From the IMG/VR virus record IMGVR_UViG_3300036828_000363, positions 29,236-93,235 of that record: a DNA stretch of 64,000 bases; one strand, given 5' to 3'. The notes under the pieces are model-generated. The model was given only the letters and a program-made list of their open reading frames with translations. It did not search any database and was not told the DNA's origin. Numbering within the stretch: position 1 is the stretch's first letter; every line of letters starts with the position of its first letter. The translations under genes were made by a program, and so were the position numbers. Source of the DNA: a virus. Of this stretch, positions 11,455 through 47,500 are shown one piece after another.

Positions 11455-11615
11455 ATTTAAAGTGGGGCAAGTTGTGTACGTCATCGAAGATCGTGTATAT
11501 GATCGTGTTCGAGCAGTGGACGCTACTAGCGAATATCCCTACAGCATGGACGGGGAGATTGGTGTGGAACACGAAGAATCTGATTTACGCGCTCTGACGG
11601 ATCAGGAGAAGGGTA

Positions 11616-12017
11616 ATGTTTGACGCGAGACAAAGCAATACTTTTACGGGAGATGACCGGGTAACGTTTGATTGGCTGTATGAAGTTACCCGCGATGGTA
11701 GCACCTCAACCTTGATTCATGGTATGGCTTTACGTGAAGCTGAAGAGTCTCCTGCGGATTCTTACATGAAGATTATGGCACGTGTACGCGACTTCATGAA
11801 AGCACACTTACGTATTGTTCACGCGCCTAGTCCGAAAGACAAAGTAGAAGGATTCCTTGAAGTCGGGGTAGAGGGTAACGAAATAGTAATCAATCACCCG
11901 GATTTGAAACCTGACGAAAATGGAGTCGGCCACATTGTTTTTTCACCGAATCAGGCGCGTGGTCTCGCAACTCTCTTGTTGAAGCACGCAGATGCCGCGG
12001 AGAAGAATCGAAGCTAG
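11616..12017 (+). CDS. Hypothetical protein
   Basis: 133-aa ORF with RBS. Confidence 0.6.
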   Translation: MFDARQSNTFTGDDRVTFDWLYEVTRDGSTSTLIHGMALREAEESPADSYMKIMARVRDFMKAHLRIVHAPSPKDKVEGFLEVGVEGNEIVINHPDLKPDENGVGHIVFSPNQARGLATLLLKHADAAEKNRS

Positions 12018-12051
12018 TCAAGTTTGTTTGTTAATCAAAGAGAGGATAAAA

Positions 12052-12351
12052 ATGTCAGTTCACCCTGCTTTTAAAGTCATGGCAAGACGGATTGGTCGCG
12101 GTTCACAACAAGTATCTTTGAGACCGTTGGTCGTGTCTCTTCAGGCGTTATTGAAAAAGTTGGATGTAACGCCCATGACTGTTTATAATTGGCGGTGTGG
12201 AGATGTAAGTTTTCCACCCCTGCCAATAGTTAAAATTTCCCAGTATCATGTTCGCTACAACCTTTTGGAAGTCAAAAATTGGCTTTTAAAGTATCGACCT
12301 AAACGTGAACGTGTCAAATCCTTTGGATCACCTTTTTTCATTGACCGCTAA
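12052..12351 (+). CDS. Excisionase/AlpA-like winged-HTH DNA-binding protein
   Basis: LDVTPMTVYNWR...FPPLP...VRYNLLEVKNWL; RBS GAGGA. Confidence 0.65.
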   Translation: MSVHPAFKVMARRIGRGSQQVSLRPLVVSLQALLKKLDVTPMTVYNWRCGDVSFPPLPIVKISQYHVRYNLLEVKNWLLKYRPKRERVKSFGSPFFIDR

Positions 12352-12403
12352 GTACAAGCAACGGTTTGTTTGTTAGTAAACAATCAGCAGAAGGAGTACC
12401 TTT

Positions 12404-13072
12404 ATGGTTAAAGTTCAAGTCGCTTTTAATTTCAACGGTTCCGGTTACATCGGATTGCCTTACTGGCCCGAGCGGAACACAATCATCGACATCGGAAAAG
12501 ACGTTCATCCTAAACTGGGCGCGACGAAGAAAGAGCAAGCTCTGCTCGCGGCTCTCGAAAAGCGCGGTCTCAACAAAGAGCAGTACGAAGAGATGCAGAA
12601 GAAAGCTGAGCGTCCTTTCTACACCGTGGACGGTTCCCGTGAAGGCACCATCGCCATTCCGGAACGAATCATTCAGAGCTTCATTAACAATGCATCTATG
12701 CAGGCACCCAAAGCAATTCCGCGTGTGTCTGACAAGGGTTTGACTTTCATCGGAGTCAAGATTGCAGACAAAATGATGGTCACTGAGAAGACTATCACCG
12801 ACGCGAAACTCTTCGAGCGGTTTGTCAAAATGGAAACGTCCAACCAGCGCAACTGGTGCTCCAGTTTCTACATCGATGACTTCATTGCCCGGGGCATATT
12901 CTCCGTCGATGAGGAAATCATCATGCCCGACGATTTGAAAAAGTTGATCGAGTGGGGCGGGAAACAAATTGGTATTGGTTCCGCTCGTCCTCAGGGATAT
13001 GGACGGTTTCAAGTTGCTGGCTGGGATTATCTGACTCCCGTGCCTGTGACCAAACCGATTGAAGAAGAATAA
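12404..13072 (+). CDS. Stand-alone RAMP-superfamily (Cas7/Csm3-like) protein
   Basis: N-terminal strand VKVQVAFNF...YIG; IAIPERIIQSFINNAS (equivalent of IPGSSLKG.LR); C-terminal Gly-rich loop GGKQIGIGSARPQGYGRF; RBS AAGGAG. Confidence 0.8.
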   Translation: MVKVQVAFNFNGSGYIGLPYWPERNTIIDIGKDVHPKLGATKKEQALLAALEKRGLNKEQYEEMQKKAERPFYTVDGSREGTIAIPERIIQSFINNASMQAPKAIPRVSDKGLTFIGVKIADKMMVTEKTITDAKLFERFVKMETSNQRNWCSSFYIDDFIARGIFSVDEEIIMPDDLKKLIEWGGKQIGIGSARPQGYGRFQVAGWDYLTPVPVTKPIEEE

Positions 13073-13073
13073 A

Positions 13074-13115
13074 GCCCGAGTCGGAGTCCCTGTCCCGGTT
13101 GAAGTTACAGTCAAA
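13074..13115 (+). repeat. Single hexamer-periodic unit (7 x GYYNNN) immediately after the RAMP stop codon
   Basis: gcccga gtcgga gtccct gtcccg gttgaa gttaca gtcaaa. Confidence 0.8.
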
Positions 13116-13247
13116 GAGTAAACTATGAATTATAGGCTAGCTACTTTTGCGATTATGTCTTCGAGCTTAACTTCTTCCCAGAAGGCGAAAGCACTGATGA
13201 GGTTGATGAAGCAGGCAAACCGCAAAAAGAAAAATAAATTTATACAC

Positions 13248-13277
13248 TTGACATCCGTTTCAGAAATTGATTAGGAT
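13248..13277 (+). promoter_or_regulatory. Sigma70-like promoter candidate
   Basis: TTGACA-18-TAGGAT, overlapped by inverted repeat TGACATCC/GGATGTCA. Confidence 0.5.
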
Positions 13278-13451
13278 GTCAGACTAGAACGTATTTCCGC
13301 GTTTTCTTTGACATCCAAGTAAACTGCCTCATGGGTAGTTCACGTTCCTTTTGTCGGTGTCGTAACGAAGGGAACTGTAGAGAGAAAACCTGATACGTTG
13401 GGGAGCGGGGGAAATTCGACCGCCTCTGCTCCCACCAATTTTCCTACCAAA

Positions 13452-13493
13452 GCCACAGCCACAGACTCAGTTTAAGTCGCAGACTACGCCGAT
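13452..13493 (+). repeat. Second isolated hexamer-periodic unit
   Basis: gccaca gccaca gactca gtttaa gtcgca gactac gccgat then gaa. Confidence 0.7.
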
Positions 13494-13755
13494 GAAATGG
13501 TATGAGTTCGATATCGAGAACGAGACACCAGCAGAAGCGCGTGATAGACGACTGATGCAGTGTCCGCCACTTAACCACGGTGAGCTAGAAGTCCTTCGCC
13601 AATGTAAAACTACGGTATGGGATGGCTACGTTATTAGTAAACAAGCGCGAGATAATCTATATAAGCGTGGGTTGATCCTTCGCTGGAACGGTTGGCAGAT
13701 AATCACGCTTGAAGGACTCGCTGTCCTTCATACACTTGGTGAGCTACGTGTCTGA
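13492..13755 (+). CDS. Hypothetical protein
   Basis: 87-aa ORF, winged-helix-like pattern (RDNLYKRGLI...WQIITLEG). Confidence 0.6.
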   Translation: MKWYEFDIENETPAEARDRRLMQCPPLNHGELEVLRQCKTTVWDGYVISKQARDNLYKRGLILRWNGWQIITLEGLAVLHTLGELRV

Positions 13756-14059
13756 TTATGTGAGCTACATGTCTGACTTTTGTAGAATCGAACGAGTCAA
13801 AGCGCGTAAGCGTTATCGGTGTATTGGTTGCTATGGCCCGATTCTCAAAGGTGAAATCCACCCGTATTATGTCGGTGTCTGGGAAGGTGACTGGGGAACG
13901 TGGAGAATGCACGAAGAGTGTTTTCAAGTCCAAGCAGATGACGATGACAGTCTTATTGCTGAAGGTGAGTTTCCTATACCACCACGGGTTAGAGTGATAA
14001 TGGATAAAGAACGAGCAGGTGTACCTATTTCCCCTCATGAATTGGTGAGTCAACTATGA
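13709..14059 (+). CDS. Small Zn-ribbon phage protein
   Basis: KARKRYRCIGC...MHEEC; true start probably near 13748-13769. Confidence 0.65.
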   Translation: MKDSLSFIHLVSYVSDYVSYMSDFCRIERVKARKRYRCIGCYGPILKGEIHPYYVGVWEGDWGTWRMHEECFQVQADDDDSLIAEGEFPIPPRVRVIMDKERAGVPISPHELVSQL

Positions 14060-14388
14060 AAACAGAAACTAGAATTAGGAAAAGAGAAACTAAAATTAGC
14101 GACCTTCGTAGCTCTATGGAGTGGTCTAACCTTAGGTATGGCCGTAATAGTCCCGATAGTAGGAGACTTCGTAGTGAACTACGCTCACTAGGTGTTAGTA
14201 GTGGGCTGTACGTGAGTCGCGAAAGTAAGATCAAAAATCTTCTTGATGCTCTTGATTGGTCTAATCATATCTACGGTTGCAGGAGCAACATCAGTAGAAG
14301 GTTCCGTATAGAGCTTCGTTCACTAGGTCACTGGGGTGGCCTATACAAGTTGAACCGTTTCAAAAAGCGGAGACAAAAACAAAGATGA
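14056..14388 (+). CDS. Basic protein with internal two-fold repeat
   Basis: MEWSNLRYG...RRLRSELRSLG / LDWSNHIYG...RRFRIELRSLG. Confidence 0.55.
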   Translation: MKTETRIRKRETKISDLRSSMEWSNLRYGRNSPDSRRLRSELRSLGVSSGLYVSRESKIKNLLDALDWSNHIYGCRSNISRRFRIELRSLGHWGGLYKLNRFKKRRQKQR

Positions 14389-14583
14389 AACTTTCACTCG
14401 CCGCGCAACAACTAGAGCAAATAAAGGCTGAGCGTAATCTTTTCGGGCCTATCCGGTCATATTTGAACTGGTGTTTGCATATGTCAAAGGCGGTTGATCT
14501 ATACGACCTGATTTGACATTTTCGCGAAGTTGTATCAACGTAGTAGTACCCACGGAAGAATCCGTGAACAAAGGAGTACCACA

Positions 14584-15675
14584 ATGGCAGCTAAAACTCT
14601 TAGTAAAGAGGCAGTTCTTCTGGCAGTAGCAGAAGAGAAGTTGGGTTTCTCATTCGGAAAACCAGATCGTCCATCCGAGAAATCTTTAGCTTGTATCCTT
14701 CCTATCCTTCGGGAAACCACATTTGTCCGTCAGTATGTCACCATGCCAGAGACAGAAAACGTTCTGGTGACCGACAGTGGAATGATCAACAAAATCAATA
14801 TCAAAAACACTGGGAAAGAAAACGTCTTCCTTCGCTCAGGTACTATCTTCGAAGGTAAAGGAACCCAGTCCAGAATTATTACCCGGAGCGCGGTATTGTT
14901 CCCCGGTTCGGAAGTCGCGCTCGATGCCCGGTGTGTTCACGCGAGTCATGGGATTCGTACTGGAAGCAATTTCAAGTACAGTGGCACCGTTCCAATGGAT
15001 GTTGAGAACGCGAGCTACACAGCAGGTTTCACTCCAGCAGATCAACACACGGTGTGGTCAAACGTCACCAGAACTACCACGGCCATGAATGCCATGCTGG
15101 GTGGTAAAAGAGTAAGCGCGGATATTTCAGGACGTATTCCCGGTGTTCGTCACACATTCACCTCAAGTCACGGTATGTTCGGTGCTTCAATATCTACTCC
15201 GCAAGAGGAACAAGGGGAACAAGAAAGAAGCTGGCCCGGATTCGCGCAAGACAACCTAAAAAAGAATTTTGATGAGTTCGCAGAGAACTTTGATGACATT
15301 CTTTCCAAGGCGCGCTTGCATGACAATCAGTGTGGGTTGTCTCTGATCACCGATACCGGATGCAAGACCATCGAATTGTTTGATGTCCCGTTGTCATGGG
15401 AGTCACTCCACAAAGACGCGGTCAAACGTATGGGCACAGAACTACTGAGAGGCGAAGACAAAACCAGTGTGTTCGAGTACAAACCCGAGCACGCAGTCAA
15501 CGCCGTCAAAAAAGTTCTGACGATGGACTTCAAAGCAAATATGATCTACGAGCACAAACCAGCAAACGGTGAACCACATGTCGCAATCTTCGGACTAACC
15601 TCGAAGCAGTACGTTGGTGAGGTGGTGGAGATGAGCGGGCAGATGATTCACTTGACCATTTTAGAAATGGCATAG
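14584..15675 (+). CDS. ARPP-1 (DUF6569)-like domain protein
   Basis: NTGKENVFLRSGTIFEGKGTQSRII...DARCVH, DQHTVW; RBS AAGGAG before ATG 14584. Confidence 0.75.
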   Translation: MAAKTLSKEAVLLAVAEEKLGFSFGKPDRPSEKSLACILPILRETTFVRQYVTMPETENVLVTDSGMINKINIKNTGKENVFLRSGTIFEGKGTQSRIITRSAVLFPGSEVALDARCVHASHGIRTGSNFKYSGTVPMDVENASYTAGFTPADQHTVWSNVTRTTTAMNAMLGGKRVSADISGRIPGVRHTFTSSHGMFGASISTPQEEQGEQERSWPGFAQDNLKKNFDEFAENFDDILSKARLHDNQCGLSLITDTGCKTIELFDVPLSWESLHKDAVKRMGTELLRGEDKTSVFEYKPEHAVNAVKKVLTMDFKANMIYEHKPANGEPHVAIFGLTSKQYVGEVVEMSGQMIHLTILEMA

Positions 15676-16169
15676 TCCAAGTCATTGACATGGTCAAAGT
15701 TGAAGCCGAAGTCCAAGAAGCCGGAGTCCCAGTTTTAGTTTAAGTCATTGCCAAAGTCGAAGTTTAAGAAGCCGAAGTTGAAGACGCAGTTTTAGTCCAA
15801 GTCTGGGCGCAGTCATAGAAGCCGAAGTCGCGGTCTATGTCGAAGTTATAGCCTTAGTCAAAGAAGCCGCAGTCAAAGTTTGAGTCCTTAGCAATGACAA
15901 GGTTTAAGTCGAAGTCTGAGAAGCCTGAGTCCGAGTCAAAGCTTGAGCTATGGTTGATGTTTAAGTCTGAGCTTAAGTCGAAGCAGCCGTAGTCTAAGTC
16001 CTAGCTAGGTCTAGGTTCTAGTCGAAGTCAAGGTCGTAGAAGCCGAAGTCGGAGTCACAGTTGCAGTTGAAGTCATAGCATGGACATAGACGAAGTCTAG
16101 GTTTGAGTCTAAGAAGCTAGTGTCAAAGTTCTAGTTGTAGTCGAAGTCGTAGTCTAAGTTGAAGTCGCA
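15675..16169 (+). ncRNA. Hexamer-periodic non-coding array, segment 1 (about 9 units), candidate guide-RNA array
   Basis: Runs of G(T/C/A)(C/T)NN(A>G,T) hexamers split by GAA; no ORF of 60 aa or more in six frames. Confidence 0.8.
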
Positions 16170-16187
16170 AAATCAGGAGTTTTTTTA

Positions 16188-16352
16188 ATGATCATGGATT
16201 TTACTGCAACTAAAAGATTTTTGGAATTGCTTCGTAAGCAAAATATGGATGGCAAGGTGTCCAAGTTGCAATTCGAACTTGAAGCATTACTTCTGCTTGC
16301 TGATGCTCAGAACAGTAAAAATTCCCAGCCCAAGTCGTGGTTAAAGTCATAG
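16188..16352 (+). CDS. 54-aa ORF embedded within the array
   Basis: RBS AGGAG at 16175; MIMDFTATKRFLELLRKQNMDGKVSKLQFELEALLLLADAQ...; non-repetitive island in the array. Confidence 0.6.
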   Translation: MIMDFTATKRFLELLRKQNMDGKVSKLQFELEALLLLADAQNSKNSQPKSWLKS

Positions 16353-17475
16353 TTACAGTCAAAGAAGCCATAGCCGAAGTCCGAGTTCAAGACAAAGCAA
16401 TGACTAAGTCTTAGAAGCCGGAGCGCGGTCACAGTTCATGTTTAAGCCGTAGTCACAGAAGTCGTAGTCGGTGTCAAAGTTTCAGGCACAGTCCTAGTTT
16501 TAGTCGAAGAAGCCGGAGTCGCAGTTATAGACCCAGACATAGACGTAGTCGAAGGAAAAGTCGAAGCATAGTCGTAGACTAAGCAAAGTCGAAGTAGCCG
16601 AAGTCAAAGCTTCAGTGGAGTCGAAGTCCAAGTCATAGTCTTTGGCGTTGTCATAGTCTCAGAAGCTGCTGTCCCAGTCTAAGTTGAAGACGTTGTCTAA
16701 GTCGTAGAAGCTTGAGTCACAGTCGAAGTTGCTGTTCTAGTCGGAGTCGTAGTCAGAGTCAAAGAAGCCAAAGTCTTTGCTTAAGTCTCGTTCCATGTCT
16801 AAGTCGTGGAAGCTGAAGTCGTAGTCGAAGTCAAGGCAATGTCGCGGTTATAGTCTTAGTCAAAGGCGCGGAAGTCGTAGCCGCAGTTGAAGACCGAGTC
16901 CCAGACTACGTTAAAGTCAAAGAAGCTGAAGTCAAAGCCTAGTCGTGGTCGTAGCTCAAGTCACAGTCGTAGTCAAAGAAGCCATAGTCGCAGTTGAAGT
17001 CGAAGTTCAAGTCACAGTCATAGAAGCCAAAGTCTGAGTCAAAGTTAGGGACGATGTTCAGGTCAATGTTTAAGAAGCTTAAGTCACAGTTATAGTCGAA
17101 GCTCAGTCAAGATCACTGTCCTAGTCAAAGAAGCCGAAGTCATAGTTGGAGTCGAAGTTATAGTTGAAGTCGTAGCTAGGTCATAGTCTCAGAAGCCATA
17201 GTCGAAGACAGAGACATGGTCGTAGTCTTAGTCGCAGTTGAAGTCGAAGAAGCCATAGCCAAAGTTCAAGTCGCGGATTCAGTCGAAGTCGAAGTTCTAG
17301 CACAGTTGCAGTCAAAGGCATAGTCCAAGAAGTCTAAGTCAAAGTCAAGGCCTTAGTCGAAGTCGAAGTCCTAGAAGTCTCAGTCTCAGTTAATGTTGCA
17401 GTCTATGGCTACGTCTCAGAAGCTGAAGTCACGGTCATAGTTCAAGTCAAAGTCTTAGTCATAGCCGAAGTCATG
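16328..17475 (+). ncRNA. Hexamer-periodic non-coding array, segment 2 (about 21-22 units), candidate guide-RNA array
   Basis: Same grammar; units of roughly 6-13 hexamers delimited by A-GAA-GCC/GCT/GTC. Confidence 0.8.
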
Positions 17476-18154
17476 GAAAAGTAATTTGTGTTCTAGCACC
17501 ATCTTCTGCCCATTTGATGATCGATGGTAGTCTGGATTCCAGTTTGAAATGTGATACCCATTTCAGCATTTTTTCTAACGTGTCCAGTACCCGAAGAGTA
17601 TTCTCTTCCGTCCTGTCCAGATGATGAGAACATAGCCCACCACGTGTTTTCATATCTGCTTGCATCATATTCCTAACTCCAGCTTTTTCCTGTCCACCAC
17701 TCAAAGTGAAAAATTCTTTCGGAACCATGAAATGCCTAAACCGAATACCTGCTGGATAGCTACAGTGAAATGGAATAGTAGTTGAGTATAGCTCACATCC
17801 ATAGTTTTCCCTGTTCAAATACTTGCAGTGTTCCTTTCCCGGTAAGCAGTTATCCATTACTGAGATAATAGGAAATTTCTCCCCGTTGAATTCAATCTGA
17901 CGTTCTACCCCGCCTTCGTGTTTCTCTCCCGGTAGCCAGTCCAGTGTCGCTCTACTACAACATGCTCCACACCCCAACTTACATTCAAAGCGAAGAAATA
18001 AATCCGGTTTGACGATTAGTTCCACTGGTTGAAAAGTTCTACCCGCATATCGAAATGGTTTTACTGCTAGCGCATGAAACCATACTTCAATCATTGATGC
18101 CACCATGTCGGATGGTTTACTGCCACCATTTCGAATTTGAATAAGTTCTAGCAT
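17471..18154 (-). CDS. YkgJ-like CxxxCxxCC cysteine-cluster protein
   Basis: FECKLGCGACCS...HCKYL...CELY...PFHCSYP. Confidence 0.75.
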   Translation of the reverse strand: MLELIQIRNGGSKPSDMVASMIEVWFHALAVKPFRYAGRTFQPVELIVKPDLFLRFECKLGCGACCSRATLDWLPGEKHEGGVERQIEFNGEKFPIISVMDNCLPGKEHCKYLNRENYGCELYSTTIPFHCSYPAGIRFRHFMVPKEFFTLSGGQEKAGVRNMMQADMKTRGGLCSHHLDRTEENTLRVLDTLEKMLKWVSHFKLESRLPSIIKWAEDGARTQITFP

Positions 18155-18341: not shown

Positions 18342-19247
18342 ATGGACAATTCGCCTCAAGAAACAAGATTTATTCCTCGTCGTGTCCCATTAGTCTTCTC
18401 GACTGAAAAACCAGTTACACCTCAAAAACAAGAGAAGTTCAAAAAATCCCGTCAAAATAGCATTAAGAAGGCGAGCGAGAAAAAGAGAGAAGCACGGAAA
18501 AAGCAAGAAATTTCAAATCAGTTTCTCTCAGTAGGTCAGGTTACCCAGTCCGGGAAGCTCACAGTTAGGCAATCTCTATTTGTCAGATACTTAGTTGAAG
18601 ACCCCAAGTTTTCAGCTACAGCTGCAGCAGAAAAAGTTGGCTATGCCAATCCAGCCGCAGTAGGTTCGAATCTACTTAAGCATCCCATAGTATCAGCAGA
18701 GATAAAACGCTTACTTAAGATCACCTCAAGGCATCTTGAAATCTCCGCTGAGAAAACCCTTTCAGAGATTGCTAATATCGCTTATTCCAATGTCTATGAT
18801 TACCTTTCGGTTAACCCAGATGGATCATGGACATTTGACCTGAAGAACATAAATCGTAATCAGGCATCGGCTATTCAGGAGATAGTTACAGAGGAAGAGA
18901 TACTCCGGGAACCCGTTACGATTGATGGAGTTAAACGATATACGAAGGTGCGCCGAACCAAGTTTAAACTCCATGACAAGCTGTCCGCGCTCAATACGTT
19001 GACTAAGTTCCAGCAACTCATGCCAAAAGAGGAACCTGAGTCTACCACCAACGTTACTATTAATGTACTAGACGCGATTATCAATGGCACAATCGGGAGC
19101 ATGAATGTCCAACAGTTGACAGAGGGAAGCGATCATCCAGCAAGGAAGTTGCCTAATGGTTTTGGTGCTCAAGCTCAGGCAGCTAGAAGAGCGATAGTTA
19201 ATGGAAGCAATGGTAATCCTCAGACTATCGAAGGTAGCTTACCATGA
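18342..19247 (+). CDS. terS: Terminase small subunit
   Basis: LTVRQSLFVRYL...SATAAAEKVGY...LLKHPIV; EIANIAYSN; KFKLHDKLSAL. Confidence 0.88.
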   Translation: MDNSPQETRFIPRRVPLVFSTEKPVTPQKQEKFKKSRQNSIKKASEKKREARKKQEISNQFLSVGQVTQSGKLTVRQSLFVRYLVEDPKFSATAAAEKVGYANPAAVGSNLLKHPIVSAEIKRLLKITSRHLEISAEKTLSEIANIAYSNVYDYLSVNPDGSWTFDLKNINRNQASAIQEIVTEEEILREPVTIDGVKRYTKVRRTKFKLHDKLSALNTLTKFQQLMPKEEPESTTNVTINVLDAIINGTIGSMNVQQLTEGSDHPARKLPNGFGAQAQAARRAIVNGSNGNPQTIEGSLP

Positions 19248-19878: not shown

Positions 19879-20502
19879 ATGCAACCATTCTTAGCCTTGA
19901 TAACTCCGATTGGTGGTGGTGGTGAGGGTGCTCATCCAGAACATCCGATTGCTTGGCCACCTTGGTGGCCCGGACACCCGGAACATCCAATTCCACCTAC
20001 TGTCTGGCCTACGCCGCCACCTTCTGGTGGTGGTGGTGTGCCGCCTTATCCGTCTCATCCTATTTACTATCCCGGCGCACGTCCGGAGCATCCAATCGCA
20101 CAACCGCCGTGGTGGCCCGGTTTCCCTGCCCATCCAATTCCACCCGGCATCTGGCCAACACCGCCTGAAGGTGGTGGTGGTGGTGGAGAGCCACCGCTCG
20201 GTTTCTGGGGCGGCTCATCTCCTTGGCCGGGGTATGCAACTCCGCCAATCTTTATTCCAATGCCAAATCCGCCTTGGTATCCCGGACATCCGGAACATCC
20301 AATCCCGCCAACCGTTTGGCCTAATCCCCCAGAGGGTGGCACACCGCCAGATGGTGGTGGCACACCTACAAGACCCCTCTTTGAGTGGAAAGTTGGATGG
20401 ACTCCAGCTACTGGCTGGGTTGTTGTTGCAGTTCCGAAGTTTGACGTTCCGACTCCGTCGAAACCCGCCGCGGCTGGCGAAGAAGAAGAAGCAGCAAGGT
20501 AA
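19879..20502 (+). CDS. Pro/Gly/Trp-rich repeat protein (HPEHPI repeats)
   Basis: Strong RBS AAGGAG; repeated PGHPEHPIPPTVWP. Confidence 0.8.
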   Translation: MQPFLALITPIGGGGEGAHPEHPIAWPPWWPGHPEHPIPPTVWPTPPPSGGGGVPPYPSHPIYYPGARPEHPIAQPPWWPGFPAHPIPPGIWPTPPEGGGGGGEPPLGFWGGSSPWPGYATPPIFIPMPNPPWYPGHPEHPIPPTVWPNPPEGGTPPDGGGTPTRPLFEWKVGWTPATGWVVVAVPKFDVPTPSKPAAAGEEEEAAR

Positions 20503-41248: not shown

Positions 41249-43840
41249 ATGGCTACAGGTTCAAATACACCTAATCTAGACCTATTCAAACCCACAAATG
41301 ATTCTTTTGACTGGGGTGATCAGGTCAACGCGAACTTTGATAAGCTAGATACAGCTTATGCAGAGAACTTGGCGGGTGTTACTGGCCCGACTGGTTACAC
41401 GGGAAATGTTGGCCCACAAGGTAATCCGGGCGCACAAGGTACACCGGGTGTACAAGGTAATCCGGGAGTACCGGGAACTCAAGGCCCGACAGGAGCACCG
41501 GGAGCACCGGGTATTCAAGGCAACAAGGGTGATCAGGGTATTCAAGGAATTCCGGGTATTCAAGGAATTCAGGGTAGCCAAGGCCCACAAGGTTCACAAG
41601 GTACGGTTGGAACTCAAGGTGCAACTGGCCCAACTGGTTACACCGGGAGTCAAGGTACACCGGGAACTCAAGGTGCGAGTGGAAATACTGGCTACACAGG
41701 TTACACTGGAGCGACAGGTTACACCGGAAGTCAAGGTACTGCTGGAATTCAAGGTGTAAGTGGAAATACTGGTTATACTGGCTACACTGGAGCGACAGGC
41801 TACACCGGATTAGCTTCGAATGTGACTGGGCCAACTGGATACACCGGAAGAACTGGTTACACTGGCTACACGGGTTACACCGGAATTCAAGGTACGGCAG
41901 GTTCAACTGGCCCCGCAGGTTCCGCGTCATCGACTGGTGCAACAGGATACACCGGATACACCGGAGCGACTGGTGCTGCGGGAGTAGCTTCAGCTACTGG
42001 TGCGACTGGATACACCGGGCCTCAGGGTGGCGCGTCATCGACTGGATCAACTGGTTACACCGGGACACCGGGAACTACCGGGCCAACTGGTTACACTGGT
42101 GCTCAAGGAGTAACTGGTTATACAGGTTATACCGGAACTCAAGGTGCAACTGGTTTTACGGGTTACACCGGAACTCCGGGTACTACTGGCTACACTGGTT
42201 ACACTGGTGCTCAAGGAGTAACTGGTTATACAGGTTACACCGGAACTATCGGTACTACTGGCTACACCGGGTACACCGGAAGTCAAGGTATACCGGGAGC
42301 GACAGGCCCGACTGGTTACACTGGATTACCATCAACTGTGGCAGGGCCAGCGGGGCCAGCAGGTTCACAAGGTGCACAAGGTTTACAAGGTGCAGCAGGG
42401 CCACAAGGCCCACAAGGTAATCAGGGAGTACAAGGTAATCAAGGAGTACAAGGCCCAGCAGGTTCGACTGGCCCACAAGGTTCGATTGGTGTTACGGGTT
42501 CGACTGGTTATACTGGACTTGGCGCAGATAATTTCAGTAACTTAGTTTCAGCAGTAGTTGGAAAGCCAAGCGTTAGTCAACTGGTGATGATCTATACCGC
42601 TGCGACTTCAATGCAGTTTCCAGCGAACTTCGCGACTCCAAATTCGAAGGGTTCTGTTGGTGCGAATCCAACAGCCACCGCAACTTACATAGTTAGCAAG
42701 AACGGTACTCAGGTAGGCACAGTAGCAATTTCAACAACTGGTGTCTTCACTTTTAGTACAACTGGTGGCACTGTTGTAACGTTGAATCCGGGTGACAGAC
42801 TAACGGTTACAGCACCAGCTACGCAAGACTCAACATTATCCGATGTAAGTATCACCTTGGCTGCAACTAGATCGGGAGTTGTATCACCGGGAACGCCAAT
42901 TCCAATTGTAACTTGGAGAGGGGCGTATGCAAGTGGTACTGCTTACGGAATAAATGACGCAGTCTCCTATCAGGGTTCTAGTTATATTTGCATTGCTCCT
43001 ACCACGGGTAACGTACCGACTAATGTTTCCTTCTGGAATATACTAGCACAAAGTGGTTTTACTGGGTACACCGGGTACACCGGGCCATCAGGTTCAGCCT
43101 CTGCTACTGGTGCAACTGGCCCAGCGGGTGCAGCAGGTTCTACTGGCCCCGCAGGTGTTGGTTCGACTGGCCCTTCAGGAAGTCCGGGCGCGACTGGTTA
43201 CACTGGGTATACTGGTGCCGCAGGATCAGGGGGAGTAACGGGCGCAGAATTGACTGCTAACAAAGATCAAGCGGGTGGTTATGCAGGACTAGATAGTAGT
43301 GCAAACCTGCTTGATCAAGAGCAATCAGTTTATGTTCGTGATGTGAAGGTTACGACTACGACTGCTGCGACTTCAACCGTCAATGATCAAACCTTGTATG
43401 CCGGCCCAGTTGTTTCCGCAGGTTATTTTGATGCTGTTGGTAGAGGTATGAAGTTTCGTGCCTTTGGAACGGTTAATGTTGCAGTTAATACAACGACCTT
43501 TCAAATAAGGTTAGTTGTGCAGGGAGTCACAACCCTGCTTATGTTTGCAGCTCAGACTTTACCTGTCGCAGGAACTAGTTATCCGTGGGAAGCAGAATTC
43601 TCACTTGTTCGTCGCACTACCGGAACAACTGGTGTTTGCTCAGTGTTTGGTAGACTAACGGTAGCTCAGTCTCCGGTTGGTACAGCAGGTGTACCGAAGG
43701 TTGATATTAATCAAGTGGTAACTAATCCAGTTGATTTTACTGTCCAGCAGACAGTGTCGATTGTCGGTACTTTCAATGTGGCATCAGCGAGCAATGTTTA
43801 CACCGTGAATGGTGGAGAGGTAGTACGGTTTGGCAGCTAG
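41249..43840 (+). CDS. Collagen-like (Gly-X-Y, GYT-rich) fibre protein with CBM5/12-like domain
   Basis: Long G-X-Y tracts; [24 protein letters not shown]. Confidence 0.88.
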
Positions 43841-44495
43841 AATTCAACAAGTAGCAGCAGTTACTAGTGGAGCTGCAACACTAACAGCAACTATTGCTGC
43901 TTCAAAAGCTAACAGTTTGATTGTTGCTTATCTAACTGTACTAGGAACATCGGGTGCAATTACAGTTAAAACTAATTCAGGCACCAGCTTAACGATTGCG
44001 AAGAATTTAACAACGCCGTTTCTGGCTGGTGTTTACTTTCTTCCTGCTTCACCAGCAGGTGTGACTAGTATTGCTACAACGTTTACATTTAATCAAGCAA
44101 GTTTAATCGTAGCAGAATACTCTGGTATTCTCGCATCTCCATTGGATCAAGCAGCAGGTAAAGACAATGGGTTTGATACTGGAGCACCAAACTGGACTTC
44201 TGGTGCAACCGCTGCTCTCGCACAATCCGGCGATTTAGTTTTAGGTTTTGCCTCAGAGGTTAGAAAAGGTACTAGAACATTCACGCCGGGTTCTGGTTTT
44301 ACTTCAGTTATTACTACTTCTGATGGAATTGCTTACATGGAAGAAATGTTAGCTTATGGAAGTACAACTGGAATTGCTGCGACTGGTACTTTTTCTCCAA
44401 CGACTACAGACTATGAAGTAATGGCGTTTGTAGTTGCGTTTAAACAAGCTGTTGTCGCAACACCACCACCGATTTTGATGTACATATCAAGTTAA
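43830..44495 (+). CDS. Ala/Thr-rich virion structural protein
   Basis: Beta-rich; IVAEYSG motif; lies between fibre genes. Confidence 0.6.
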
Positions 44496-44508
44496 GAGGG
44501 TTTACTAA

Positions 44509-47500
44509 GTGGCATCTGGTACAACAACCCCGTTTTTAAGTCTCTATAAACCTTTCCGTGGTGAGGTTGGTTGGGACGCGGCAGTAAACCAGAATTTTGA
44601 TCTAATCGATACCTTTGCAGAAGAGAACTCTCAAGGTTCGACAGGTGGAGCAGGTAGTACTGGATCAACTGGCTACACCGGATACACTGGCTATACTGGC
44701 CCTGCCGGGAGTGGTGGAACTGGTTCGGGTTCTACTGGAGCGACTGGATATACCGGAACACCGGGAGCTACTGGTGCAACTGGTTACACGGGTTACACCG
44801 GAAGGACTGGCTACACGGGTTATACCGGGAGCCAAGGTACTGCTGGAACTATAGGCGCGACTGGATATACAGGGTACACCGGAACCGGAACCATTGGTGC
44901 AACAGGATATACCGGGTACACCGGGTCTCAAGGTTCAACTGGTTACACTGGCCCCGCTGGAGTAGCAGCGAATACCGGGCCAACAGGTTACACCGGGCCA
45001 GCAGGTGTTGGTTCAACTGGTGCAACCGGATACACTGGCCCCGCAGGTTCAGGTTCTGCTACTACCGGGCCGACTGGTTACACTGGTGCTCAAGGCGCGA
45101 CTGGTTACACCGGGAGTCAAGGTAATCAGGGAGCAACTGGCCCAACTGGTTACACCGGGAGTCAAGGTACTGCTGGAAGTCAAGGTATACCGGGAACTAC
45201 GGGTGCAACTGGATTTACAGGTTACACTGGAAGTCAAGGTACTGCTGGAACCATTGGCCCGACTGGTTACACGGGTTATACCGGGAGTCAAGGTACTGCT
45301 GGAACTCAGGGGGCGACTGGATATACAGGATACACCGGGAATACTGGTGCTCAAGGTTCTCAGGGGATTGTAGGGGTTACTGGGCCTCAAGGTGTCACCG
45401 GATACACCGGATACACTGGTGCGGGTGCTTTTACTGGTTACACAGGTTATACCGGACAGTCATCCACGGTCACCGGGCCAACTGGATACACCGGAACTCA
45501 AGGTACTGCTGGAACTCAAGGTGCAACTGGATACACTGGCTACACGGGATACACTGGGTACACCGGGAGTCAAGGTACTGCCGGAACACCAAGTACGGTA
45601 ACTGGGCCAACTGGTTATACAGGTTACACCGGGACTGCTGGAACCATAGGCGCGACTGGTTACACCGGATACACTGGTGCTCAAGGTTCAACTGGCTACA
45701 CGGGTTACACCGGAACTCCGGGTGGTGCTTCATCGACTGGTTCTACCGGGCCAACTGGTTACACTGGCGCTGCTGGTAGTGGTGGCGGTGGTTTTATAAA
45801 TATTCAGAGCCAACTACCTCAAGTTACTGGTACTGCTGCTGATGCAACATTATTCACCGCTTCGCTTACTGCTGGGGTGCTGACAAGTTCAACTAAGGTC
45901 ATAATCAAGTTTTCAATTTCTCACGTTGGTTCAGCTTCGTGTATCTATAAACTCAAATGGGGAACTGATTCTTTTACCATTTTAACTAGCACTGCTGCAG
46001 CAGTGGTCGGAGAAATAGGAATCACACTCGGTCTTCAAGGTCAACCCACTCAACAAGTGGTTTCTAGCAGTGTGCAACAAAATGCGCTTTCACCAACACT
46101 TACAGTTAATGCCGGAACTCAAGCTGCTGGTAGTGCAATTACTGTTACGATTACAGGGAATGTTGCAGCGACTGATAGTTTCACTCCACAACAGTTTGCG
46201 ATGGTTAGTGTTCTAGCTCAAGGGATAACTGGTTCCACTGGTTATACTGGTGCTCAAGGTACACCGGGAGCTACTGGTGCAACTGGTTATACAGGTTACA
46301 CTGGTGCTCAAGGTACTGCCGGAACTCAAGGTACTACTGGCTACACTGGTTACACGGGTTCTGTAGGCGCAGCTTCAACAGTAACCGGGCCAACTGGTTA
46401 TACAGGTTACACCGGAAGTCAAGGTACAGCGGGAACTCAAGGCCCAACCGGATACACCGGATATACAGGTGCTCAGGGAATTCAGGGTGTAGTAGGAGCG
46501 ACTGGATACACCGGATACACCGGAACTCAAGGTATTGTTGGAACTCAAGGTGCTACTGGTTACACCGGGTACACCGGGACTGCCGGAACTCAAGGAGTCA
46601 CCGGATATACTGGCTACACCGGATACACTGGAGCAGGAAATTTCACTGGCTACACCGGATACACTGGGCCAGCGGGTGCTGCGTCAACCGTTACCGGATA
46701 CACTGGCTACACTGGTTACACCGGATCAGCGGGTACTGCTTCAACCGTAACCGGGCCAACCGGATACACTGGAGCTTCATCTACCGTAACCGGGCCAACT
46801 GGTTACACTGGACTTATAGGCCCGACTGGTACTACTGGTTACACCGGAAGGACTGGCTACACTGGTTACACTGGAGCAGGAAACTTCACTGGTTATACTG
46901 GTTACACCGGGCCAACTGGTTACACTGGAGCAGGGAATTTCACTGGCTATACCGGCCCGACTGGTTACACGGGATTAGGCACTGATAATTTTACGCATGT
47001 TGTTTCTGCTGTTGCAGGAAAACCTACCGCCAGTCAACTAGTTTGTATTAGTACGGTAGCTGCTCCTGCTCAATTTCCTGCTGACTTCAACACTCCAACT
47101 TCTCAGGCATCAGTAGGTACTAATCCAACTGCAACTGCCGTCTACACCATCTACAAGAATGGAGTGCAAATTGGAACTTGCACATTCAATACATCAGGGG
47201 TAGAAACATTTTCTTCCAGTGGTTTAGTGGTAACTGCTAATCCGGGTGATAGATTAACAATTCTTGCACCAGCTACTCCAGATGCTACGATGGCAGATGT
47301 AAGTATTAACCTTGTCGCAACTCGTTCTGGTGTAGTCGCGCCAAGTACTCCAATTCCGATTTTAACTTGGAGAGGTGCTTACAATGCAGGCACCACGTAT
47401 GGAGTCAATGATGTAGTTAGCTACCAGAATTCAAGCTACGTTTGTATTGCTCCGTCTACTGGAAATCTTCCGACCAATACTTCGTTCTGGGCTTTGATGG

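What the first reader, a model, noticed from the sequence alone, without database searches (positions are those of the whole stretch)
12404..17475. Stand-alone Cas7/RAMP-like gene with a hexamer-grammar non-coding array: candidate non-CRISPR RNA-guided phage system
Seen: a 222-aa ORF with RAMP hallmarks (IAIPERIIQSFI; Gly loop GIGSARPQGYGRF) and no cas1/2/3/5/6/10 or CRISPR array in the window. Nearby are about 1.6 kb of ORF-free DNA (15675-16169 and 16328-17475) made almost entirely of hexamers, each a near-constant triplet (GTC>GTT,GCC,GAC,GCT) plus a variable triplet usually ending in A. An extra GAA (A-GAA-GCC/GCT/GTC) splits the run into about 30 units of roughly 6-13 hexamers, and I saw no two identical units. 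Established: Cas7-family subunits polymerise on RNA at 6 nt per subunit, matching the array period. Inference: each unit is a guide RNA on which the RAMP oligomerises, gripping the constant bases and displaying the variable ones, with the GAA junction as the unit boundary. From memory and unverified, this resembles reported phage RAMP systems with alternating constant/variable motif RNAs (VIPR, pentameric GGY/NN); the hexameric (A)GYY/NN grammar here would be a different variant.
Basis: partly seen in the sequence, partly recalled or inferred. Interest (0 to 1): 0.97.

Follow-up and report, generated by a model that had tools for sequence, protein, structure and literature searches.

The report
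Six-base VIPR-like phage guide arrays
An uncultured soil phage carries a lone CRISPR-type (Cas7/Vipr-like) RNA-binding protein and about 32 compact guide-like units built from six-base repeats (four constrained letters, two free), most likely a six-base version of the RNA-guided VIPR silencers described in 2026, which are reported only with five-base repeats.

Summary
Window 15675-16169 and 16328-17475 are non-coding. They have a strong 6-nt period: lag-6 identity is 0.51-0.52 against about 0.19 at other lags. The repeat is A-G-Y-C-N-N, four constrained bases and two free.

A 3-nt AGA insertion cuts the arrays into 30 different units of 5-14 repeats. Two further solitary units lie at 13073-13114 and 13451-13486.

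The link between gene and array is conserved:
- All 23 testable close homologs have a same-strand hexamer run within 300 nt of the gene end.
- All 17 loci of a distant clade (29-46% identity to that clade's own query, A3) have CGYC/NN period-6 arrays.
- None of these loci shows period 5. The SUSP1 control does.

A sister phage shares 6 units with conserved NN strings but degenerate constant bases, in shuffled order.

VIPR papers held here describe only pentanucleotide repeats. I read this as a new six-base variant of VIPR. Expression, RNA binding and the target rule remain untested; one in-frame 18/18 match to a phage DUF3606 gene is only a lead.

This scan noted six-base VIPR-like arrays before on other DNA (e1-5802627, e1-5802622).

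The parts
12404..13072 (+). Vipr-like stand-alone RAMP gene (222 aa). G-loop GIGSARPQGYGRF at residues 190-202.
13073..13117 (+). Solitary guide-like unit of 7 hexamers, starting 1 nt after the RAMP stop codon and followed by AGAG.
   Evidence: Read directly. Regex run 13073-13114 (0-2 such runs in 20 shuffled genomes). Single-unit loci L002 and L012 show the same layout.
13451..13486 (+). Second solitary unit of 6 hexamers, just upstream of ORF 13492.
13492..14516 (+). Four small ORFs (87, 116, 110 and 43 aa) lying between the RAMP gene and the arrays. Function unknown.
   Evidence: ORF list. Only weak PHROG matches of unknown function. No family among them is conserved across the related loci; only the RAMP gene is. 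blastn of the two phage genomes shows no block of 300 nt or more between 13044 and 14551.
14530..15675 (+). ARPP-1 domain protein (381 aa). Its stop abuts array block A. Present only here and in the sister phage.
   Evidence: PF20208 E 1e-21. Homolog in L001 at 11554-12672. ARPP is a predicted conflict-system enzyme (PMC9503650).
15675..16169 (+). Array block A: 9 units of AGYC/NN hexamers separated by AGA. Ends in a T-run.
16188..16352 (+). Small ORF (54 aa) with an AGGAG Shine-Dalgarno sequence, embedded between the array blocks.
   Evidence: and the sequence. Its first 33 residues are 64% identical to an ORF inside the sister phage's array, E 4e-7.
16328..17475 (+). Array block B: 21 units of AGYC/NN hexamers separated by AGA.
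17471..18154 (-). Convergent gene (227 aa, CxxCxxCC-type) that bounds the locus. Not part of the system.
   Evidence: PF03692 E 1.6e-4, just below cut-off.

Best explanation
The region 12404-17475 is a phage-borne, VIPR-type RNA-guided system that works in a six-nucleotide register.

Proposed mechanism:
1. The arrays are transcribed on the + strand, the strand of the RAMP gene.
2. Copies of the 222-aa Vipr-like RAMP line up along each unit, one protomer per AGYC/NN repeat. They hold the four constrained bases and expose the two free bases.
3. The exposed dinucleotides of 5-14 successive repeats together specify a gapped target, most likely double-stranded DNA of a competing phage or other mobile element. 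That target is then silenced, as shown for SUSP1 VIPR.
4. The 3-nt AGA insertion shifts the register by half a repeat. It therefore ends one filament and starts the next, so about 32 guides fit into less than 2 kb without the structured 3' tails of type II vrRNAs.

Shown here: the RAMP fold and its Vipr homology; the 4+2 hexamer grammar; the conserved gene-array linkage and co-orientation across two distant clades; unit-wise turnover with conserved NN strings.

Inferred: transcription, processing at AGA, protein binding, DNA rather than RNA as the target, and the number of skipped target bases.
For: Protein.
- The only PDB sequence hit of profile A1 is SUSP1 Vipr; hhalign 94.7%.
- The model has three helices (22-68) between strand 1 and the RRM helix. 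Going by the residue numbers the paper gives (H17 in the RRM sheet, K33 in the bundle), the Vipr alpha-bundle lies in the same N-terminal stretch.
- The two G-loop residues that read the guanines in SUSP1 (D177, W178) align to S193 and A194 here. This fits a different constant motif.

Array.
- Period 6 occurs only in these stretches. The logo is 4 constrained plus 2 free positions.

Linkage.
- 23 of 23 close-clade loci that hold the gene end and downstream DNA have a + strand run of at least 5 hexamers within 300 nt of it.
- 17 of 17 distant-clade IMG/VR loci have period-6 arrays beside the gene.
- The dominant 4-mers are AGTC/AGCC, TGCC or CGCC, always on the gene strand.
- No locus shows period 5. 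The SUSP1 control shows period 5 and not 6.
- No other gene is conserved across the loci.

Selection on NN.
- Six units are shared with the sister phage, against about 0.2 expected from shuffles at 6 or more matches.
- In these units, positions 1, 3 and 4 differ at 40 of 123 sites, while NN differ at 3 of 82.
- The shared units stand in a different order, and the remaining 24 units are unique.

Context.
- The virus record carries a terminase. No Cas1, Pfam RAMPs or CRISPR repeat was found.
Against: - No RNA data exist for this sequence, so transcription, processing and binding are unproven.
- Homology to Vipr covers only the C-terminal 57 columns. The distant-clade profile scores type VII Cas7 (E 0.012) slightly better than SUSP1 Vipr (E 0.065), so placement inside the Vipr clade is open.
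- No target was established. There is no excess of matches for skip 0-5 in about 470 kb of local phage DNA. Three exact 1-nt-skip scans of IMG/VR found nothing.
- The one perfect hit could be chance.
- The shared units were picked by NN identity, which inflates the NN conservation figure.
- In this window the main arrays lie 2.6 kb from the gene with five ORFs in between, unlike most relatives.
Confidence: 0.8

Rival explanations
1. Same RNP, but it recognises RNA rather than double-stranded DNA. The protein would act like a type III or type VII Cas7 backbone that binds, and perhaps cleaves, transcripts of competitors.
For: The closest solved folds are Csm3 and type VII Cas7, which are RNA-targeting backbones. 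The distant-clade profile scores type VII Cas7 at E 0.012. The 6-nt register is that of Cas7 filaments (established knowledge, restated in the VIPR papers).
Against: In the AGYC clade the NN composition follows the sense strand of codon positions 1-2 (r 0.70-0.86). The only perfect match is also sense. A guide of the same sense cannot pair with the mRNA. Only two bases per repeat are free to pair, as in DNA-binding VIPR. No nuclease partner such as Cas10 or Cas14 is nearby.
Confidence: 0.1
2. The arrays are not guides. They would be a repetitive scaffold on which the RAMP assembles for another purpose, for example an RNA or DNA decoy, a sponge, or a structural or regulatory filament. The free dinucleotides would then be merely unconstrained.
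For: No target was found. The unit right after the stop codon (13073-13117) could be a cis-regulatory binding site. The NN composition of the distant clade does not resemble coding sequence (r -0.38).
Against: Unconstrained positions should drift fastest. In units shared by the two phages they are the most conserved: 3 of 82 differences against 40 of 123 at positions 1, 3 and 4. Units are all different yet discrete, and they turn over as cassettes, the pattern of a specificity library. The homologous SUSP1 system is a proven guide system.
Confidence: 0.06
3. The periodic DNA is coding or formerly coding sequence (a hexapeptide-like or dipeptide repeat, possibly under another genetic code) or a chance low-complexity tract next to an unrelated RAMP-like gene.
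For: Unit lengths are multiples of three and lag 3 is slightly raised.
Against: Each of the six frames has 10-30 stops. Each + strand frame holds all three stop types over the two blocks together, so no single reassignment opens a + strand frame; - strand stop types were not tabulated. The same grammar follows the gene in 40 independent loci with different base composition.
Confidence: 0.02

Closest known systems
VIPR systems, type II exemplar Escherichia phage SUSP1 (Vipr plus vrRNA; bioRxiv 10.64898/2026.04.26.720920 and 10.64898/2026.04.26.720927)
   Same: Both are phage-encoded and pair a lone small RAMP with flanking non-coding arrays on its strand. Both lack cas genes and a CRISPR array. 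In both, repeats alternate a constrained block with a hypervariable NN. The G-loop region is homologous. A helical insertion lies in the same N-terminal stretch. Guide sets differ between related phages.
   Different: - The repeat is 6 nt (AGYC/NN) rather than 5 nt (GGY/NN); the SUSP1 control shows period 5.
- The guanine-reading G-loop residues D177/W178 are S/A here, and the loop is one residue longer.
- Units abut through a 3-nt AGA instead of carrying a structured 3' tail.
- About 32 guides are present instead of 4.
- No conserved vap gene was found.
- The N-terminal two thirds are not alignable by sequence.
Non-canonical and staggered VIPR arrays (NNNGG, YNNNG, NNNNG; GAC/NN, CAC/NN, WGT/NN; bioRxiv 10.64898/2026.04.26.720920 and 10.64898/2026.10.21.760802)
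   Same: The constant block may differ from GGY. [quoted passage not shown] A Vipr-like fold lies nearby.
   Different: All of those are pentamers. The language-model survey removed clusters whose period was a multiple of 3 and that also showed a lag-3 peak, which could hide period 6. Here the unit boundary is a half-repeat insertion, not a 1-nt overlap.
Cas7/Csm3 backbone subunits of class 1 CRISPR effectors (types III and VII)
   Different: This locus has no CRISPR repeats, spacers, Cas1 or other cas genes. Only 2 of 6 bases are free, against 5 of 6 paired in crRNA. The Pfam RAMPs model does not match.

Membership tests
VIPR (Vipr + vrRNA) | Sequence homology to a characterised Vipr protein | tested here: met
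   Profile A1 against PDB: the only hit is SUSP1 Vipr, E 8.7e-5. hhalign 94.7%, E 5.8e-8. This covers the C-terminal 57 columns only.
VIPR (Vipr + vrRNA) | Branches within the Vipr clade rather than with the CRISPR RAMPs | tested here: inconclusive
   The distant-clade profile A2 scores type VII Cas7 at E 0.012 and SUSP1 Vipr at E 0.065. No tree could be built, because the published Vipr set is not available here.
VIPR (Vipr + vrRNA) | Minimal locus in a virus or provirus, without cas genes or a CRISPR array | tested here: met
   G000 is an IMG/VR virus record with a terminase. No Cas1 or Pfam RAMPs match in G000 or G003. No CRISPR-like tandem repeat.
VIPR (Vipr + vrRNA) | Flanking non-coding tandem repeats that alternate a constrained block with a hypervariable NN, on the gene's strand | tested here: met
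   Logos. Found in 23/23 close and 17/17 distant loci. The strand follows from the dominant 4-mers.
VIPR (Vipr + vrRNA) | The repeat unit is a pentanucleotide (GGY/NN or a related 5-mer) | tested here: not met
   Period 6 in the window and in all 40 related loci with arrays, and period 5 in none. The same scan finds period 5 at the SUSP1 locus.
VIPR (Vipr + vrRNA) | Conserved structured 3' tail after each repeat tract (type II) | tested here: not met
   Units are separated only by AGA. No Rfam match at E of 1 or less.
VIPR (Vipr + vrRNA) | Associated vap accessory gene | tested here: inconclusive
   No gene other than the RAMP gene is shared across 12 loci at blastp 1e-5. The weak HTH-like ORF 11992-12351 and the ARPP-1 gene are local candidates only.
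VIPR (Vipr + vrRNA) | vrRNAs are expressed and co-purify with the protein | not testable with these tools
   No RNA run was listed for this sequence.
VIPR (Vipr + vrRNA) | Gapped recognition of double-stranded DNA with one skipped target base per repeat | tested here: inconclusive
   No excess for any skip of 0-5 in local DNA. One in-frame 18/18 match at skip 1. Three other exact scans were empty.
Class 1 CRISPR-Cas | CRISPR array of repeats of about 25-40 nt with spacers, plus adaptation and effector cas genes | tested here: not met
   No PADLOC hit for the locus proteins.

The most novel reading that the evidence does not exclude
The six-base clade is not just a variant inside VIPR. It would be the lineage that links VIPR to CRISPR: a phage RAMP that already binds RNA in the 6-nt register of Cas7 backbones while still using the gapped two-base code. 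This would place the origin of the class 1 register in phage guide arrays. A weaker form is that it uses a different gapped code (a skip length other than one), which would give a second programmable DNA-reading geometry.
Probability: 0.15. Interest if true: 0.92.

Novelty: new variant of a known kind. Interest (0 to 1): 0.8.

Why it matters
VIPR was described in 2026 as a new logic of RNA-guided DNA recognition and as a possible ancestor of CRISPR. Every published array has a five-base repeat, and the cryo-EM model explains that register residue by residue.

This locus belongs to a large, diverse phage clade: 119 clusters at 50% identity, found mostly in metagenome and IMG/VR virus contigs, with the only named relatives being two Acidobacteriota MAGs. 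That clade uses a six-base repeat with a different constant motif and a different way of delimiting guides. This has three consequences:
- The noncontiguous code is not tied to one geometry.
- It offers a natural comparison for how G-loop and thumb residues set the register.
- It shares the 6-nt period of Cas7 filaments, which bears on the proposed VIPR-to-CRISPR path.

The AGA-delimited format packs a guide into about 50 nt, which may also be of practical interest for multiplexed repression.

Tried and rejected
Related DNA came from the search for related loci and the genome search instead.
- No RNA holder was listed for 12404-17475.
- Complex prediction with three copies of the protein gave no verdict (score 0.00). 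It is not used as evidence either way.
- Rfam: no match at E of 1 or less.
- Promoter and terminator scans were at background.
- The broad alignment A2 was too diverse for the search for related loci. An HMM search with A2 of 401 Acidobacteriota genomes found the family only in G001, which was already held.
- tblastn of the window protein and of distant member P0143 against 50,697 deposited phage genomes found no match, so no cultured phage with this system was found.
- Target searches:
  - Guides from 19 loci against 286-472 kb of local phage and prophage DNA, at skip 0-5, gave no excess over shuffled guides and no self-targets.
  - Exact IMG/VR scans at skip 1 of two conserved guides and one further guide (20, 24 and 20 specified bases) gave 0 hits.
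  - The skip-4 scan found only the sister phage's own array, which serves as a positive control for the scan.
  - Guide 16709 (18 bases) hit one DUF3606 gene in frame. No other guide converges on that 52-kb contig or its relative. Chromosomal DUF3606 genes of Acidobacteriota match only 4-12 of 18. The collection's size is not stated, so chance cannot be excluded.
  - The single guide of prophage L002 hit a 305-aa ORF that I recognised from memory as DUF1080-like (not scanned against Pfam) in its own MAG with 1 mismatch, in frame. Rough chance is 0.05-0.3, so it is not used.
- NN composition as a proxy for codon positions 1-2 holds in the AGYC clade (r 0.70-0.86) but fails in the CGCC clade (r -0.38). 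It is rejected as general evidence.


Full report
**The observation**

Lags 12, 18 and 24 decay from that value, and all non-multiples give 0.14-0.25. The RAMP gene and the 381-aa gene are flat at about 0.26-0.29. A sliding scan finds the signal nowhere else in the 64-kb window.

Each of the six frames holds 10-30 stop codons. Five of the six + strand frame-by-block counts hold TAA, TAG and TGA, and each + frame holds all three over the two blocks together, so no single stop reassignment opens a + strand frame; - strand stop types were not tabulated. Rfam has no match.

A phase-tracking model gives the repeat as A (0.81), G (0.99), T/C (0.74/0.16), C/T (0.75/0.24), followed by two positions with 0.17 and 0.29 bits. 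The unit is therefore four constrained bases plus a free dinucleotide, AGYC/NN.

**Units**

A 3-nt insertion, AGA in 24 of 26 cases, sits between an NN and the next AGYC. It cuts the arrays into 30 units of 5-14 repeats: 9 in block A and 21 in block B. Of 264 repeat tokens, 217 are hexamers, 28 are hexamer plus junction, and 16 are pentamers. Eleven of the pentamers read AGC+NN.

No two units are alike; the longest internal exact repeat is 21 nt.

One has seven hexamers and starts 1 nt after the RAMP stop (13073-13114). The other has six hexamers at 13451-13486. Twenty shuffled genomes gave 0-2 such runs.

**The protein**

ORF 12404-13072 has no Pfam, NCBIfam or PADLOC family. It has 96 close relatives and 119 clusters at 50% identity, almost all from metagenomes.

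By sequence, the family profile finds one PDB entry only, 'SUSP1 Vipr protein', at E 8.7e-5. Against the SUSP1 protein read from KT454805, hhalign gives 94.7% probability and E 5.8e-8 over 57 C-terminal columns that include the G-loop.

In that alignment the SUSP1 residues that read the two guanines, D177 and W178, correspond to S193 and A194 here. The loop is also one residue longer. I take this as consistent with a different constant motif; it is an inference.

The model also has three helices (22-68) between strand 1 and the RRM helix. Going by the residue numbers given for SUSP1 Vipr (H17 in the RRM sheet, K33 in the alpha-bundle), its bundle lies in the same N-terminal stretch. That too is an inference.

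**Context**

The window is part of a 93-kb IMG/VR virus record with a small terminase at 18342-19247. Neither this record nor its sister has Cas1 or a match to Pfam RAMPs. Tandem Repeats Finder sees no CRISPR-like array.

**Does the array go with the gene?**

Thirty loci encoding close relatives (48-94% identity) were fetched.
- Every one of the 23 that hold the gene's 3' end and at least 170 nt beyond it has a + strand run of five or more hexamers within 300 nt of the gene end, mostly within 60 nt.
- Array length ranges from one unit (L002, L012) to more than 190 hexamers (L015).
- The logos are the same AGYC/NN; three loci have TGCC/NN.
- The junction is again a 3-nt half-repeat: AGA in 115 of about 175 junctions, and TGA where repeats start with T.

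A distant subgroup has the G-loop GIGASRKMGWGRF. Its representative clusters are about 27-40% identical to the window protein. It gave 17 IMG/VR loci, 29-46% identical to that subgroup's own query alignment A3. All 17 have period-6 arrays beside the gene, upstream, downstream or both, built of CGYC/NN.

No locus shows period 5. The same scan on the SUSP1 locus finds period 5 and not 6. In all but one locus the dominant 4-mers (AGTC/AGCC, TGCC, CGCC) are read on the gene strand and fit one XGYC grammar; L053 reads TGGC instead. The arrays are therefore co-oriented with the gene.

No other gene is conserved across the loci. The conserved module is the RAMP gene plus its array.

**Evidence that the free dinucleotides carry information**

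The sister phage (G003, L001) is syntenic at 63-89% nucleotide identity over the aligned blocks, but the arrays do not align.
- At the level of NN strings, six of the 30 units recur in the sister: 6/6, 9/9, 9/9, 5/6, 7/7 and 6/7 dinucleotides identical. Shuffled guides reach six matches about 0.2 times.
- The shared units stand in a different order in the two phages. The other 24 units are unique.
- Within the shared units, positions 1, 3 and 4 differ at 40 of 123 sites, always within the allowed alphabet. The NN positions differ at 3 of 82 (Fisher p 1e-7).
- Caveat: the pairs were found by their NN strings, so the contrast is inflated. Even so, a third of the 'constant' sites have changed while whole NN strings survive, which is the reverse of neutral drift.

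This is the behaviour of a library of specificity cassettes.

**Targets**

I could not establish the recognition rule.
- Guides from 19 loci, searched with 0-5 skipped bases against up to 472 kb of local phage and prophage DNA, do no better than shuffled guides. There are no self-targets.
- Exact scans of IMG/VR with three guides at one skipped base found nothing.
- A skip-4 scan found only the sister array, which shows that the scan works.
- Guide 16709 (TG AC GA GC CT GG GT AG AA) matches one 52-kb viral contig perfectly. The match reads TGG ACC GAT GCG CTC GGC GTC AGC AAG.
- That match lies in frame and in sense on the WTDALGVSK motif of a 67-aa DUF3606 protein, Pfam E 1.5e-18. A 95% relative of that gene matches at 17 of 18.
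- This is the kind of target reported for VIPR: a coding sequence with the wobble base skipped. However, it is a single hit with 18 specified bases in a collection of unstated size.
- No other guide converges on that contig. Chromosomal DUF3606 genes match poorly. I treat it as a lead only.
- NN composition mimics codon positions 1-2 in the AGYC clade (r 0.70-0.86) but not in the CGCC clade (r -0.38). It is not general evidence.

**Comparison with what is known**

VIPR was published as preprints in 2026. It consists of Vipr, a minimal RAMP, together with vrRNAs of 9-16 YNNGG repeats. The GGY bases are flipped out and held by two adjacent protomers. The NN bases pair with double-stranded DNA, skipping one target base per repeat. 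The result is silencing of rival phages and satellites.

All seven types are described with a 'pentanucleotide motif'. The alternatives named (NNNGG, YNNNG, NNNNG) are also 5-mers. A later language-model survey recovered periods of 60-79, 18 and 5 nt. It found non-canonical 5-mers next to Vipr-like folds. It discarded clusters whose period was a multiple of three and that also showed a lag-3 peak, which could hide period 6.

I found no report of a six-base register in the papers held here. Earlier notes of this scan record six-base VIPR-like arrays (YGRC/NN) in another large phage. These agree with the present reading but are not independent evidence.

**Verdict**

The locus works like VIPR and is homologous to it, but it fails the defining pentamer feature and lacks the type II tail. 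I file it as a new six-base variant of a known kind, not as a member of a described type.

Its placement relative to Cas7 is open, because the distant-clade profile scores type VII Cas7 (E 0.012) and SUSP1 Vipr (E 0.065) about equally.

My confidence is about 0.8 that this is a Vipr-type RAMP with cognate guide arrays. It is about 0.4 that the target rule is one skipped base on DNA.

Noticed in passing
window 14530-15675 (+): A 381-aa ARPP-1 domain protein (PF20208, E 1e-21) ends exactly where array block A begins. The same gene sits in the same place in the sister phage but in no other related locus. ARPP is a predicted enzyme of ADP-ribose-linked conflict systems (PMC9503650). It may be cargo or a local accessory of the system.
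   Followed up: partly
window 16188-16352 (+): A 54-aa ORF with an AGGAG ribosome-binding site is embedded between the two array blocks, just after a T-run. Its first 33 residues are 64% identical to an ORF inside the sister phage's array (E 4e-7).
   Followed up: partly
window arrays 15675-17475: Sixteen of 264 repeats are pentamers, and eleven of them read AGC+NN. That is the published 5-nt format (purine-G-Y/NN) occurring inside a 6-nt array, so the fourth constrained base may be dispensable.
   Followed up: no
L047:4640-4980 and L043:4631-5250: In the distant CGYC/NN clade the unit delimiter differs. L047 uses a recurrent 7-nt CGTTCGG, and L043 runs for more than 50 hexamers without any register break.
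   Followed up: no
L003:10001-10629 (G001:C11:225566-226200): The RAMP gene of this Acidobacteriota MAG prophage is found as two overlapping pieces in different frames. This may be a frameshift or an assembly error, although its 1.1-kb array is intact.
   Followed up: no
L003:11755-11775, L012:10695-10715, window 16160-16187: Array blocks tend to end with AAGG or AGGAG followed by a T-rich run without a clear hairpin. This may be a conserved 3' end signal.
   Followed up: no
window 41400-46970: Long runs of 9-nt-phased GGTTACACCGGAACTCAAGGT-type repeats (periods 18, 27, 54, 72 and 108) encode Gly-X-Y collagen-like repeats, probably in tail-fibre genes.
   Followed up: no
window 19879-20502 (+): A 207-aa ORF is rich in repeated PEHPIPP / WPxPP motifs (a proline-rich repeat protein), just downstream of the small terminase.
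   Followed up: no
L063:1518-1721 (G404:C1:29738-29941): A DUF3606 gene of a 52-kb viral contig carries the only perfect 1-nt-skip match to a window guide (unit at 16709), in frame on the family's WTDALGVSK motif.
   Followed up: partly
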